A stretch of DNA of 20,934 nt, from assembly GCA_964432775.1 (NCBI GenBank), contig CAYSPF010000006.1, positions 19,238 through 40,171 of the forward strand. The letters are read 5' to 3'. A program made the translations under genes and the position numbers. Positions 1 through 622 of this stretch are shown one piece after another (the stretch's first letter is position 1; each line of letters starts with the position of its first letter). Below the pieces are notes generated by a model. It saw only the letters and a list, made by a program, of their open reading frames with translations. It was not told where the DNA came from and made no database searches. Origin of the DNA: an uncultured Geobacter sp. GTDB lineage: Bacteria > Desulfobacterota > Desulfuromonadia > Geobacterales > Geobacteraceae.

Positions 1-31
1 TATCATTGCGTTATGTATTCATCGATCAATG

Positions 32-46
32 TGGCACGACGATTGA
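32..46 (+). promoter_or_regulatory. sigma54-like -24/-12 element TGGCACG-N4-TTGAA (consensus TGGCACG-N4-TTGCW), oriented toward the tRNA-like element and SPFH-rtcA-rtcB
   Basis: The seven-base -24 motif TGGCACG (32-38) is a perfect match. The spacing to the TTGA block (43-46) is exact. The -12 C is replaced by A (TTGAA). The site lies in an AT-rich (IHF-like) stretch at 1-60, as is typical of enhancer-dependent promoters. The rtc operons of E. coli and Salmonella are sigma54/RtcR dependent. Confidence 0.3.
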
Positions 47-157
47 ATAACAAATGACAGATGCTGATGCCTTCGGGCCAACGGCGCACGGTGCTGCCGT
101 TAACGGATGGTTGAGCGACGTGCGTTCCGTAATGGATTCTGAACTGACGGCAGCAGC

Positions 158-231
158 GCCTGGTTAGCTCATTCGGATAGAGCAGCGTAAGAAGACTACG
201 CCTGTAGCAGGTTCGAATCCTGCACCAGAAA
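158..231 (+). ncRNA. tRNA-Lys-derived tRNA-like element, non-canonical (tRNA mimic or tRNA pseudogene)
   Basis: Cloverleaf elements read directly from the sequence:
- U8/A9 at 165-166.
- D-stem GCTC/GAGC with D-loop ATTCGGATA (167-184).
- Anticodon-like stem GCGTA/TACGC with 7-nt loop AGAAGAC (186-202).
- 5-nt variable region.
- T-arm GCAGG-TTCGAAT-CCTGC (206-222), identical to proteobacterial tRNA-Lys.
- 3' acceptor strand ACCAGAA, then A.

The defects:
- The 5' acceptor strand GCCTGGT gives only 5/7 pairs (positions 1:72 and 2:71 are mismatched).
- Loop position 33 is G, not the invariant U.
- No encoded CCA. Confidence 0.5.
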
Positions 232-622
232 GGGTGAACAACCCTCATTACCGCGAAAGCGGCAATACCAACGACCGGAGGGGGACAAACATACCTTTTG
301 CCCGGGTACTTCCAGCGGGTTCGGAGCGGCATGATGGCGGGGAAGCCCGTCTTCTGCCGCAGCGGATCAGCAGGAAGTCGGGAAAGCTTGAACAGTGCCA
401 TGCAGACCGCGGATCCGTTTTCCCGCCGCGCAAGCAGACAATGTGCCCTTTTTTCCAGGTGAAGTCCGCTTCGAAAAGGGCTCCCGGAACTGCCGACGCA
501 AAGAATAACGGGCGCGGGCTCCGCACTGTAAAAGCGGCAGGGTATGGAAGTCCCCCAAAGGCCGGTCACCACGATCAGCCATTGCAGTAAGGTATGGAAT
601 TGAATGGATAAGGAGAGAAAAC
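232..622 (+). other. ~390-nt GC-rich, hairpin-dense non-coding leader between the tRNA-like element and the SPFH gene. Possibly a structured regulatory RNA or ncRNA; family not assignable.
   Basis: No ORF here has an RBS or plausible composition. Several discrete hairpins are visible:
- AGGGT-gaaca-ACCCT (231-245).
- CCGC-GAAA-GCGG, a GNRA tetraloop hairpin (251-262).
- An 8-bp stem GCCCTTTT/AAAAGGGC (445-452/474-481) enclosing a nested GAAG-tccg-CTTC hairpin.
- CTGCCG/CGGCAG (490-495/535-540) enclosing GCGG-gct-CCGC.
- A direct repeat GGTATGGAA at 541-549 and 591-599. Confidence 0.35.

What the first reader, a model, noticed from the sequence alone, without database searches (positions are those of the whole stretch)
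1..622. tRNA-Lys-derived tRNA mimic plus structured leader in front of an Rtc RNA-repair operon, behind a sigma54-like element. Possible Y-RNA-like or decoy RNA.
What the sequence shows directly:
- Positions 158-231 hold a near-complete cloverleaf. Its T-arm is identical to proteobacterial tRNA-Lys (GCAGGTTCGAATCCTGC). The D-arm is canonical, with U8 and A9.
- It cannot be a functional tRNA as drawn. Acceptor base pairs 1:72 and 2:71 are mismatches (G-A, C-A). The anticodon loop AGAAGAC lacks U33. No CCA is encoded.
- It is followed directly by a GNRA tetraloop hairpin and ~390 nt of further GC-rich hairpins with no credible ORF.
- About 110 nt upstream, inside an AT-rich stretch, is TGGCACG-N4-TTGAA. 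That is a perfect -24 sigma54 element at exact spacing, with a -12 TTGA in place of TTGC.

What established knowledge adds:
- In E. coli and Salmonella, rtcBA is driven by a sigma54 promoter under RtcR.
- The RtcR CARF domain is activated by tRNA fragments.
- In Salmonella the same operon carries rsr (Ro60) plus YrlA/YrlB Y RNAs, which contain a tRNA-like module.

Inference: an operon-encoded tRNA mimic sits where Y RNAs sit elsewhere. It could be a built-in sensor or decoy for anticodon nucleases, or a substrate for the downstream repair enzymes RtcA and RtcB. I do not recognise this arrangement as one already described.
Basis: partly seen in the sequence, partly recalled or inferred. Interest (0 to 1): 0.82.

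Follow-up and report, generated by a model that had tools for sequence, protein, structure and literature searches.

The report
tRNA-like RNA partnering SPFH repair operon
A conserved tRNA look-alike really sits in front of this RNA-repair operon, but that pairing was already described in 2016 as the "band-7-associated tRNA"; what appears to be under-described is that it is only the middle domain of a roughly 500-base structured RNA that travels with a vault-like SPFH protein.

Summary
Window 158-231 is a tRNA-like cloverleaf: Rfam tRNA 32.7 bits, with acceptor pairs 1:72 and 2:71 mismatched and no U33. It lies behind a sigma54-type motif (32-46) and ahead of SPFH-rtcA-rtcB.

In a 99%-identical contig, rtcR is divergent and starts about 100 nt upstream of window position 1.

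The element is conserved upstream of the orthologous SPFH gene in 62 of 72 testable loci from several phyla. Its cloverleaf covaries strongly. The "defects" are family traits: a relaxed acceptor top and a free anticodon loop.

It is not new. [quoted passage not shown]

What I add:
- The tRNA-like part is embedded between a covarying 5' domain (63-157) and a 3' domain (232-567). Rfam 15 holds neither.
- The RNA+SPFH pair also occurs without any Rtc genes.
- The SPFH protein is predicted to be soluble and resembles the major vault protein.

Most likely reading: a structural RNA partner of the SPFH protein. In this window it is transcribed as the leader of the RtcR/sigma54-driven operon. The anticodon-nuclease decoy or sensor idea is weakly supported.

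The parts
32..46 (+). Sigma54-type promoter motif TGGCACGACGATTGA. GG at 33-34 is the -24 element; the -12 element reads TTGA instead of TTGC. Predicted transcription start is about 57-59.
   Evidence: 2 matches in the window against 0.10 expected. The same motif TGGCAC-N5-TTG[A/T/C] sits in the same place in RtcR-bearing loci only. rtcR is divergent just upstream in L081. The start site is inferred from the usual spacing and has not been measured.
63..157 (+). 5' domain of the RNA. Helices: P1 63-71/149-157; P2 78-80/133-135; P3 83-90/119-128; P4 92-98/109-117. The conserved unpaired stretch ATTCTGA (136-142) corresponds to the family consensus GGGTTCTGAC.
   Evidence: Alignment A4 of 33 loci from several phyla. 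RNAalifold and pair counts: 90% paired, 12 of 17 pairs with double changes, covariation 0.479 against 0.184 in shuffles. A P1 duplex was found in nearly every sequence, with different sequences. nhmmer finds the domain directly upstream of 43 of the 63 tRNA-like elements.
158..231 (+). tRNA-like domain. Acceptor stub 160-164/223-227 (pairs 1:72 and 2:71 mismatched); D arm 167-183; anticodon stem 185-189/197-201 with loop AGAAGAC; T arm 207-223. No CCA is encoded.
232..262 (+). Two small hairpins directly after the tRNA-like domain: GGGTGAACAACCC (232-244) and CCGCGAAAGCGG (251-262, GAAA tetraloop).
   Evidence: In relatives the tetraloop changes to GCAA or UUCG while the stem is kept. Equivalent hairpins are present in Planctomycetota loci.
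273..567 (+). Core of the 3' domain. It is closed by long-range helix A (273-289 with 547-563), which encloses helix B (394-407 with 517-527) and helix C (419-425 with 500-506; weak in this window). Conserved blocks: GACCGGAGGGGG, GCCATGCAGACCGCGGATCCG, GGCTCCGC, CCCCCAAAGGCC.
   Evidence: E-INS-i alignment of 36 loci. Helices A/B/C are 88/93/80% paired, against 42-54%, 35-46% and 27-52% when the partner is slid. Covariation is 0.50/0.61/0.69 against about 0.25 in shuffles, with 0 of 300 shuffles as high. The single-sequence MFE fold recovers helix A. nhmmer finds the domain after 39 of the 63 tRNA-like elements.
568..622 (+). Short linker carrying the ribosome-binding site (AAGGAG, 611-616) in front of the SPFH start codon at 623. 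No terminator lies between the RNA and the gene.
   Evidence: no terminator-like site on the + strand between 232 and 622.
623..1729 (+). SPFH/Band-7 protein of 368 aa with no N-terminal membrane segment. It is the conserved protein partner of the RNA.
   Evidence: Pfam Band_7, 2e-34. The AlphaFold model (pLDDT 82) shows three 5-stranded beta repeats, an SPFH domain and a long helix. Stomatin and HflK/C are the best partial matches; only major vault protein aligns over about 420 columns. An internal repeat is also seen by BLASTP.
1764..4281 (+). rtcA (1764-2789) and rtcB (2887-4281), the RNA 3'-phosphate cyclase and the RNA ligase.
   Evidence: Pfam RTC, 6e-79, and RtcB, 2e-87.

Best explanation
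Window 63-567 encodes one large structured RNA of about 500 nt whose middle domain is a tRNA-like cloverleaf. This is the 'band-7-associated tRNA', here with a 5' and a 3' domain attached. It is the cognate RNA of the SPFH/Band-7 protein encoded just downstream.

In this organism it is transcribed from an RtcR-activated sigma54 promoter, as the first 560 nt of the SPFH-rtcA-rtcB transcript.

I infer that the RNA and the soluble, vault-like SPFH protein form a ribonucleoprotein. The conserved tRNA elbow (D and T arms) would act as a tRNA mimic that recruits or positions tRNA-handling enzymes, or damaged tRNAs, for the Rtc repair enzymes. This parallels the Ro60-Y RNA (YrlA) pair, which occupies the same operon position in Salmonella.

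Shown:
- the anatomy and covariation of the RNA;
- its strict linkage to, and co-orientation with, the SPFH gene;
- the promoter/RtcR linkage;
- the predicted protein fold.

Inferred:
- transcription start and read-through;
- physical RNA-protein binding;
- the role in RNA repair.
For: 1. A tRNA-like element lies on the same strand upstream of the SPFH gene in 62 of 72 testable orthologous loci. These come from Desulfobacterota, Planctomycetota, Acidobacteriota, Myxococcota and others.
2. The cloverleaf covaries. The D and T arms are nearly invariant. The anticodon loop and the acceptor top are free. Selection therefore acts on the fold and elbow, not on decoding.
3. The 5' and 3' domains covary and are found across phyla. 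A structure of this size and complexity suits a structural or RNP RNA.
4. The RNA+SPFH pair persists in loci with no RtcR, RtcA or RtcB and with unrelated neighbours. The constant partner is therefore SPFH.
5. Where rtcB is inserted (L013, L015, L035), the whole RNA stays intact at the head of the operon.
6. The SPFH protein lacks a membrane anchor and has an MVP-like beta-repeat, SPFH and long-helix architecture.
7. The literature already proposes Band-7 plus b7a-tRNA as an alternative to Rsr plus YrlA (bioRxiv 10.1101/312249). The P. aeruginosa counterpart PA4581.1 is expressed (PMC13637947; PMC8743555).
8. The sigma54 motif co-occurs with RtcR, and rtcR is adjacent in L081.
Against: - No experiment shows binding between the RNA and the SPFH protein, and none shows that the 500-nt species exists.
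- The RNA is always upstream of, and co-oriented with, the SPFH gene. In this window no terminator separates them. That also fits a purely cis-acting leader.
- In RtcR-less loci a T-run often follows helix A. It could be an attenuator rather than an RNA 3' end.
- The 5' and 3' domains were not detected in Myxococcota and in some other loci.
- The MVP resemblance has a low TM-score (0.37) and may reflect only shared beta repeats plus the SPFH domain.
Confidence: 0.45

Rival explanations
1. Cis-regulatory leader. The structured RNA is a sensor in the 5' UTR, riboswitch-like or T-box-like, or a protein-binding operator for SPFH, RtcB or RtcA. It would control transcription read-through or translation of the SPFH gene and have no function in trans.
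For: - It is always upstream and on the same strand as the SPFH gene.
- In this window it runs without a terminator into the ribosome-binding site.
- In 12 of 20 RtcR-less loci the 3' strand of the closing helix A is followed at once by a T-run. This looks like a conditional terminator.
Against: - A size of about 500 nt, with three independently covarying domains and an embedded full cloverleaf, is far beyond known leaders.
- In L013, L015 and L035 the gene directly downstream is rtcB, not SPFH.
- No alternative, mutually exclusive pairing was found.
- The P. aeruginosa counterpart accumulates at about half the level of ordinary tRNAs (PMC13637947). That suggests a stable RNA species.
Confidence: 0.2
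2. Decoy or damage sensor. The tRNA-like domain would be a bait for anticodon nucleases. Its cleavage would yield a 2',3'-cyclic-phosphate fragment that activates the RtcR CARF domain, or it would soak up the nuclease, and RtcA/RtcB would then reseal it.
For: - RtcR is activated by tRNA 5' halves ending in cyclic phosphate in Salmonella (PMC7790460).
- The element sits in an RtcR-controlled transcript.
- UUU, the anticodon of the classic PrrC target tRNA-Lys, is the commonest triplet, and some members keep a canonical CUUUUAA loop.
- Loop hypervariability could reflect an arms race.
Against: - The loop is 5, 6 or 8 nt long in 16 of 64 members, and lacks U33 in 16 of 48 seven-nt loops.
- In this window it reads AGAAGAC, which resembles no cellular tRNA loop.
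- More than half of the loci have the RNA without RtcR, RtcA or RtcB.
- The idea does not explain the conserved 5' and 3' domains or the linkage to SPFH.
- In Salmonella the analogous YrlA tRNA-like domain is not cut by the relevant nuclease (PMC7790460).
Confidence: 0.15
3. Processing signal. The cloverleaf would recruit RNase P and RNase Z, as in tRNA punctuation or MALAT1-mascRNA. This would cut the primary transcript into a 5' RNA, a small tRNA-like RNA and a 3' RNA or mRNA with a new 5' end.
For: - P1 of the 5' domain ends exactly at tRNA-like position 1 (nt 157/158).
- 9 of 64 members encode N-CCA after the acceptor stem, and Myxococcota members have a 7-bp acceptor.
- In several loci the element lies inside, or next to, real tRNA arrays on the same strand.
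Against: - In most members the acceptor stem is cut down to 3-5 pairs. Pairs 1 to 4 are formed in only 21, 27, 32 and 45 of 64 members. That is a poor RNase P/Z substrate.
- The three domains are always kept together in a fixed order, which points to one functional molecule.
Confidence: 0.15
4. Ordinary decaying pseudo-tRNA, with GC-rich spacer, that happens to lie next to the operon.
For: The Rfam tRNA score is low in this window (32.7 bits). Acceptor and loop are defective.
Against: - It is conserved in the same place across phyla, with abundant compensatory changes.
- The flanks covary as well.
- The fold is far more stable than shuffles.
Confidence: 0.02

Closest known systems
[quoted passage not shown] I know it through its citation in bioRxiv 10.1101/312249 and my recollection of the abstract.
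   Same: A predicted non-coding RNA that strongly resembles a tRNA, encoded next to a Band-7/SPFH gene and the RtcB ligase. It was proposed as the cognate RNA of the SPFH protein and as the counterpart of Y RNA. The window element meets all of these points.
   Different: I could not read the original paper. I therefore cannot say whether it describes the covarying 5' domain (63-157), the 3' domain (232-567), the frequent absence of Rtc genes, or the relaxed acceptor top. The secondary source mentions only a tRNA-like molecule.
PA4581.1 ('tRNA-Arg4') of Pseudomonas aeruginosa PAO1, between rtcR (PA4581) and PA4582 (SPFH)-rtcB-rtcA.
   Same: Same position between a divergent rtcR and an SPFH-led rtc cluster. 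It is an odd tRNA without an encoded CCA and with non-canonical features, and it is expressed (PMC13637947; PMC8743555; PMC13086221).
   Different: It is annotated as an ordinary tRNA gene. I could not fetch the Pseudomonas sequence, so homology of the flanking domains is untested.
YrlA Y RNA with Rsr (Ro60) in the Salmonella rsr-yrlBA-rtcBA operon.
   Same: An operon-encoded RNA with a tRNA-like module, in an RtcR/sigma54-controlled rtc operon, paired with a non-enzymatic protein. The two are likely functional analogues.
   Different: No Rfam Y_RNA or YrlA match, and no TROVE/Rsr gene. YrlA replaces the anticodon arm with the Ro60-binding stem formed by its two ends. Here a full anticodon arm is kept, and the extra domains are unrelated to the Ro60-binding helix.
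Eukaryotic vault particle (major vault protein plus vault RNAs).
   Same: MVP is built from beta repeats, an SPFH-like shoulder and a long cap helix, and it is associated with small non-coding RNAs. The window's SPFH protein has the same domain order in miniature. MVP is the only PDB fold that aligns over nearly its whole length.
   Different: Low TM-score (0.37) and 13% identity, with three repeats rather than nine. Vault RNAs are about 100 nt and are not tRNA-like. Cage formation and RNA binding are untested here.
Large ornate bacterial RNAs often found near tRNA genes (GOLLD, ROOL).
   Same: Several hundred nucleotides, many covarying helices, and genomic association with tRNAs or tRNA arrays.
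   Different: No Rfam match to GOLLD, ROOL or any family other than tRNA, in the window or in 5 other loci. Different taxa and a different gene partner.

Membership tests
b7a-tRNA (band-7-associated tRNA-like RNA) | Predicted RNA with a tRNA-like cloverleaf | tested here: met
   Rfam tRNA 32.7 bits against a gathering score of 29. ARAGORN call. Covariation in 47 loci.
b7a-tRNA (band-7-associated tRNA-like RNA) | Encoded next to a Band-7/SPFH-domain protein gene | tested here: met
   SPFH gene at 623-1729, 391 nt downstream on the same strand. The same holds in 62 of 72 testable loci.
b7a-tRNA (band-7-associated tRNA-like RNA) | Association with RtcB RNA-ligase operons | tested here: met
   rtcA and rtcB follow the SPFH gene, and rtcR lies upstream in L081. 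Note that many family members lack Rtc genes.
b7a-tRNA (band-7-associated tRNA-like RNA) | Match to the authors' own alignment or model | not testable with these tools
   The paper (PMC5062991) is not held, and there is no Rfam family for it.
Functional (decoding) tRNA | Seven-pair acceptor stem | tested here: not met
   G1-A72 and C2-A71 are mismatched. Family-wide, pairs 1 to 3 are formed in only 21, 27 and 32 of 64 members.
Functional (decoding) tRNA | Seven-nt anticodon loop with U33 and a purine at 37, and an anticodon conserved among orthologues | tested here: not met
   The loop is AGAAGAC with G33. Across the family, loops are 5-8 nt long with 23 different triplets. The short variable loop is also incompatible with the ARAGORN label tRNA-Leu.
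Functional (decoding) tRNA | Aminoacylation, and a 3' CCA (encoded or added) | not testable with these tools
   No CCA is encoded here, though N-CCA is encoded in 9 of 64 relatives. Charging would need an experiment.
Bacterial Y RNA (YrlA/Yrn1) | Ro60/Rsr-binding helix formed by the 5' and 3' ends, with an rsr (TROVE) gene nearby | tested here: not met
   No Y_RNA or YrlA hit at E<=10 in 1-2000. No TROVE domain among the window ORFs scanned or among the genes of L081.
Sigma54-dependent, RtcR-activated promoter | -24 GG and -12 GC elements with the correct spacing | tested here: inconclusive
   -24 TGGCAC is perfect and the spacing is exact. The -12 element is TTGA, not TTGC. Orthologues carry TTGA, TTGT or TTGC at the same place.
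Sigma54-dependent, RtcR-activated promoter | Cognate activator RtcR (CARF-like domain plus sigma54 AAA+ domain) and sigma54 itself encoded | tested here: met
   RtcR is divergent in L081 (SPFH protein 99% identical), about 100 nt beyond the window start. rpoN is at 14360-15811. The motif is found only in RtcR-bearing loci.
Sigma54-dependent, RtcR-activated promoter | Transcription start and dependence on RtcR/RpoN | not testable with these tools
   Needs 5'-end mapping and mutants.
Vault-like SPFH cage RNP | MVP-type domain order (beta repeats, SPFH shoulder, long helix) in a protein without a membrane anchor | tested here: inconclusive
   The model has pLDDT 82. MVP aligns over 417-437 columns but at TM 0.37. 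Oligomeric state and RNA binding are unknown.

The most novel reading that the evidence does not exclude
The 'b7a-tRNA' may be only the central domain of a previously undescribed class of large ornate RNA, about 450-560 nt. Its parts are a four-helix 5' domain, a tRNA-like domain with a free anticodon loop, and a 3' domain closed by a long-range helix. This RNA would be the dedicated partner of a soluble, vault-like SPFH protein. Together they would form a widespread bacterial RNP module (Desulfobacterota, Planctomycetota, Acidobacteriota, Hydrogenedentota and others). The module is sometimes wired to RtcR/RtcAB and is sometimes embedded in near-complete tRNA gene arrays. If so, it could be a bacterial counterpart of vault or Ro-Y RNA particles, acting on the tRNA pool.
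Probability: 0.4. Interest if true: 0.78.

Novelty: new member of a known kind. Interest (0 to 1): 0.55.

Why it matters
The functions of bacterial Rtc RNA repair, of Y-RNA-like tRNA mimics and of soluble SPFH proteins are all poorly understood. Per a 2018 preprint (bioRxiv 10.1101/312249), the b7a-tRNA had not been experimentally validated since its prediction in 2016; I found no later validation in the papers held.

This analysis shows four things:
- the element is under strong structural selection;
- it is part of a much larger RNA, with helices that can be targeted for testing;
- its constant partner is the SPFH protein rather than RtcB;
- the protein looks like a miniature major vault protein.

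Together these turn a vague prediction into a concrete RNP hypothesis. It can be tested in cultured strains: Syntrophotalea carbinolica DSM 2380, Blastopirellula marina DSM 3645 and P. aeruginosa PAO1/PA14.

It also gives genome annotators a practical warning. tRNA finders assign this element arbitrary 'isotypes' (Leu, Val, Gly, His and so on), which inflates tRNA gene counts with a non-decoding RNA.

Tried and rejected
- **Original paper.** I tried to read Burroughs & Aravind 2016 by DOI, PMC id and PubMed id. It is not held. The prior-art statement therefore rests on a secondary citation and on my memory of the abstract.
- **Exact-protein look-up.** A look-up of the window's SPFH protein found nothing. 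This was solved later through the 99%-identical P0001.
- **BLAST of the 74-nt element against E. coli genomes.** No hit at the E-value limit, so the claim that the T arm equals tRNA-Lys is not tool-verified.
- **Isotype of origin.** Similarity to 120 or so co-resident tRNAs gave no clear winner.
- **ORFs overlapping the leader** (234-590 +, 3-572 -, 248-526 -). None has a Pfam match, and indels in close relatives are not multiples of three. Rejected as genes.
- **Y RNA, GOLLD, ROOL or any other Rfam family.** No match.
- **Phage origin.** Only 3 of 2.9 million viral contigs carry the SPFH family. It is not mainly viral.
- **Terminator between RNA and SPFH in the window.** None found.
- **Pseudo-tRNA by chance.** Rejected by covariation.
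- **P. aeruginosa intergenic region.** I did not obtain it.
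Full report
**1. What is in the window**

- Positions 158-231 (+) fold into a cloverleaf. ARAGORN calls it a tRNA and labels it 'tRNA-Leu(aag)'. Rfam's tRNA model scores it at 32.7 bits, just above the gathering score of 29, and marks pairs 1:72 and 2:71 as non-standard.
- The sequence shows G1-A72 and C2-A71 mismatches. The anticodon stem has five pairs (185-189/197-201). The loop is AGAAGAC, with G where U33 should be. The variable loop is short, which is incompatible with a bacterial tRNA-Leu. 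The T arm is GCAGGTTCGAATCCTGC, and no CCA follows.
- TGGCACGACGATTGA lies at 32-46. The pattern TGGCAC-N5-TTGH occurs twice in the window, against 0.10 expected.
- Downstream lie an SPFH/Band_7 gene (623-1729), rtcA (1764-2789) and rtcB (2887-4281).
- No ORF overlapping 1-622 has a Pfam match. No terminator-like site lies between the cloverleaf and the SPFH start.

**2. Regulatory context**

- The window starts about 100 nt short of the next gene. A contig whose SPFH protein is 99% identical (L081; about 97% DNA identity across the leader) carries a divergent gene with the RtcR domain (PF06956) and the sigma54-interaction domain. It is separated from the SPFH gene by 722 nt.
- The same layout is found in L001 and L003, and in the cultured Syntrophotalea carbinolica DSM 2380 (L084).
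- Six close relatives keep TGGCAC-N5-TTG(A/T) at the same place.
- Across 62 loci, the motif TGGCAC-N5-TTG[A/T/C] upstream of the RNA was found almost only where RtcR is present.
- rpoN itself is in the window, at 14360-15811.
- An RtcR-activated sigma54 promoter is therefore well supported by comparison. The -12 element departs from the GC consensus, and nothing has been measured. The usual spacing puts the start near 57-59, a few bases before the first helix of the RNA.

**3. The tRNA-like element is conserved, and its 'defects' are the rule**

- A scan of one genome per species found 80 loci with a relative of the SPFH protein, in Desulfobacterota, Planctomycetota, Acidobacteriota, Myxococcota, Hydrogenedentota and others.
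- ARAGORN finds a tRNA-like gene on the same strand, 250-650 nt upstream of the SPFH gene, in 46 of them (44 within 250-720 nt; five lie more than 1 kb upstream). The 'isotypes' differ wildly.
- A covariance model built from 47 of them raises this to 62 of the 72 loci that have enough upstream sequence.
- On the 47-sequence alignment the cloverleaf is 92% paired. 18 of 21 pairs show changes on both sides. The covariation score is 0.606 against 0.170 in shuffles, and against 0.06-0.15 when partners are slid.
- The D and T arms are almost invariant, and the anticodon stem covaries freely.
- The acceptor stem is selectively relaxed. In 64 elements, pairs 7, 6 and 5 are formed in 62, 61 and 60. 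Pairs 4, 3, 2 and 1 are formed in only 45, 32, 27 and 21.
- The anticodon loop is 7 nt long in 48 elements and 5, 6 or 8 nt in 16. U33 is present in 32 of 48. There are 23 different triplets, and UUU is the commonest (6).
- N-CCA is encoded in 9 of 64.
- This is therefore a non-decoding tRNA mimic under selection for its fold, and above all for the elbow. The window's mismatches at 1:72 and 2:71, and its odd loop, are typical of the family.

**4. It is already described**

- A preprint from the Wolin laboratory (bioRxiv 10.1101/312249) states that in certain bacteria RtcB is encoded next to a Band-7 domain protein and a predicted RNA. [quoted passage not shown] It strongly resembles an authentic tRNA, and its existence had not been validated. 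The preprint credits Burroughs & Aravind 2016.
- From my own knowledge, the abstract of that paper names SPFH/Band-7 modules and 'a novel tRNA-like molecule' as a counterpart of Ro/TROVE and Y RNAs. I could not open the paper itself.
- Independently, P. aeruginosa PA4581.1 is annotated tRNA-Arg4. It lacks CCA and has other oddities. It lies between rtcR (PA4581) and the divergent PA4582-PA4585 rtc cluster, and is expressed at about half the level of ordinary tRNAs (PMC13637947).
- It was among the most up-regulated genes in a late cystic-fibrosis isolate (PMC8743555).
- PA14_60630, the PA14 counterpart of PA4582, is an SPFH protein embedded in the rtc locus (PMC13086221).

**5. What appears to go beyond the published description: a three-domain RNA**

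*5' domain*
- Immediately upstream of the cloverleaf lies a conserved domain of about 95 nt (window 63-157).
- In 33 loci from several phyla its helices P2-P4 are 90% paired. 12 of 17 pairs have double changes, and covariation is 0.479 against 0.184 in shuffles.
- An outer helix P1 (63-71 with 149-157) can be formed in nearly every sequence, from different sequences (mean z = -3.1 against shuffled partners).
- P1 ends at the base before tRNA-like position 1.
- A nearly invariant unpaired stretch (family consensus GGGTTCTGAC; ATTCTGA at 136-142 here) follows P2.

*3' domain*
- Downstream, two small hairpins (232-244 and 251-262) are followed by a large domain.
- It is closed by long-range helix A (273-289 with 547-563), which encloses helix B (394-407 with 517-527) and helix C (419-425 with 500-506; poor in this window).
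- In a 36-sequence alignment, helices A, B and C are 88, 93 and 80% paired. When the partner is slid they fall to 42-54%, 35-46% and 27-52%.
- Their covariation is 0.50-0.69, against about 0.25 in shuffles, and 0 of 300 shuffles reach the observed value.

*Distribution and databases*
- Sequence profiles detect the 5' domain next to 43 of the 63 tRNA-like elements, the 3' domain next to 39, and both next to 37. They fail mainly in Myxococcota, where the SPFH protein is only about 35% identical.
- The single-sequence fold of 58-570 recovers most of these helices. Its energy is -226 kcal/mol, z = -5.5.
- Rfam 15 matches only the tRNA part, both in the window and in five representative loci.

**6. 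What the RNA travels with**

- tblastn with the window's proteins shows RtcR, RtcA or RtcB in fewer than half of the 80 loci.
- In Planctomycetota and Myxococcota the neighbours of the RNA+SPFH pair are unrelated: DUF1501, MFS transporters, cytochromes, an amidase.
- Where rtcB is placed ahead of the SPFH gene (L013, L015, L035), the complete RNA stays at the head of the operon.
- In RtcR-bearing loci the closing helix is rarely followed by a T-run (2 of 16). In RtcR-less loci it often is (12 of 20).
- This suggests an RNA gene that ends there, or an attenuator, in the RtcR-less loci, and a fused leader in loci like this window.
- The invariant partner is thus the SPFH protein.

**7. The protein**

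- It has no N-terminal hydrophobic segment.
- With a 29-sequence alignment, AlphaFold gives a confident model (pLDDT 82). It has three five-stranded beta repeats (4-47, 71-114, 138-181), then the SPFH domain, then a helix of about 43 residues. BLASTP also sees the internal repeat.
- Foldseek against the PDB ranks stomatin, HflK/C and prohibitin first, over about 230-250 columns.
- The only targets that align over about 420 columns, the whole protein, are major vault proteins (E about 1e-11, TM 0.37).
- This is a resemblance in domain order, not proof of a cage.

**8. Mechanism**

- The best-supported reading (about 0.45) is that the roughly 500-nt RNA is the cognate structural RNA of the SPFH protein. 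It would present a tRNA elbow as a mimic. Here it is made as the leader of the RtcR/sigma54-driven SPFH-rtcA-rtcB transcript.
- This is the SPFH counterpart of the Rsr-YrlA pair that occupies the same operon position in Salmonella.
- Shown: structure, conservation, synteny, promoter linkage and predicted fold.
- Inferred: the transcript boundaries, the RNA-protein contact, and any role in repair.
- Rivals:
  - a purely cis-acting leader or attenuator (0.2);
It is weakened by the unconstrained loop and by the many Rtc-less loci;
  - an RNase P/Z processing signal (0.15). It is weakened by the truncated acceptor stems;
  - a chance pseudo-tRNA (0.02), which is refuted.

**9. Verdict**

- The specific finding, a tRNA mimic between rtcR and SPFH-rtcAB, is a new member of a kind described in 2016 and annotated in P. 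aeruginosa. I therefore mark its novelty down.
- The residual interest lies in the three-domain architecture, its independence from Rtc, the vault-like partner, and the link to tRNA arrays. I could find none of these in the accessible literature or in Rfam.
- I could not check them against the original paper.

Noticed in passing
L030 2482-8143; L051 1630-9089; L027 2157-5437; L061 8531-12787; L038 4182-5556; L045 1583-2398; L020 594-1478; L086 155-3560: In several Planctomycetota loci, one Myxococcales locus and one Acidobacteriaceae locus, the RNA+SPFH module is embedded in, or abuts, large same-strand tRNA gene arrays of 5 to 34 genes, some of them near-complete sets. L086 is a 94-kb contig predicted to be viral, and carries 23 tRNAs, then the RNA, then SPFH. 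This hints at a link between the module and tRNA supply or tRNA operon processing.
   Followed up: partly
L030, L032, L034, L037, L039, L042, L043, L050, L062 (between the 5' domain and the main tRNA-like element; alignment): These loci carry a second, more degenerate tRNA-like unit, with a GGTTCGAnTCC T arm, inserted between the 5' domain and the main cloverleaf. Some versions of the RNA therefore hold two tandem tRNA-like domains.
   Followed up: no
window 8885-17660 (- strand): This is the classic rpoN neighbourhood. It holds lptC (17088-17660), an ABC ATPase that is probably lptB (15859-16638), rpoN (14360-15811), hpf (13746-14291), an EIIA-Ntr-type PTS protein (13237-13713), HPr kinase (12281-13240), RapZ (11419-12393) and a PEP-utilising enzyme I (8885-10702). 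Sigma54 is therefore encoded 10 kb from the sigma54-type promoter of the finding.
   Followed up: partly
window 17728-17742 (+): A second exact match to TGGCAC-N5-TTGA (TGGCACAGAGATTGA) lies 19 nt upstream of ORF 17761-18342 (193 aa, no Pfam match). It is a possible second sigma54 promoter.
   Followed up: no
window 4348-4986 (-): A 212-aa ORF convergent with rtcB has a weak nucleotidyltransferase match (PF01909, 23 bits). It is also called as a gene in L081. RNA-ligase-associated nucleotidyltransferases are known partners of repair ligases, but this one is on the opposite strand and is not PF10127.
   Followed up: no
loci (for example L029 about 5965, L016, L021, L076, L038): In RtcR-less loci the 3' strand of closing helix A is followed directly by a T-run (12 of 20 loci). 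In RtcR/sigma54 loci, including the window, this is rare (2 of 16). The RNA may be a separate transcript or an attenuator in one setting, and a fused leader in the other.
   Followed up: partly
L013 4201-4653, L015 4243-4780, L035 4376-; L047 5608-5698: Gene order varies. In L013, L015 and L035 the order is rtcR, then the RNA, rtcB and SPFH. In L047 it is rtcR, rtcB, rtcA, the RNA and SPFH. The RNA is either at the head of the operon or directly before the SPFH gene.
   Followed up: partly
L068-L080 (Myxococcota), for example L071 5640-5717, L077 3140-3215: Myxococcota versions look much more like real tRNAs. They have a 7-pair acceptor with a single A3-C70 mismatch, an encoded CCA in some, and the CGU anticodon, with a canonical loop in L077. 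The 5' and 3' domains were not detected there. They may be an ancestral or a separate state of the family.
   Followed up: no
window 623-1729 (protein residues 4-181): The SPFH protein carries three tandem five-stranded beta repeats ahead of the SPFH domain and has no membrane anchor. Major vault protein is the only solved structure that aligns along the whole chain.
   Followed up: partly
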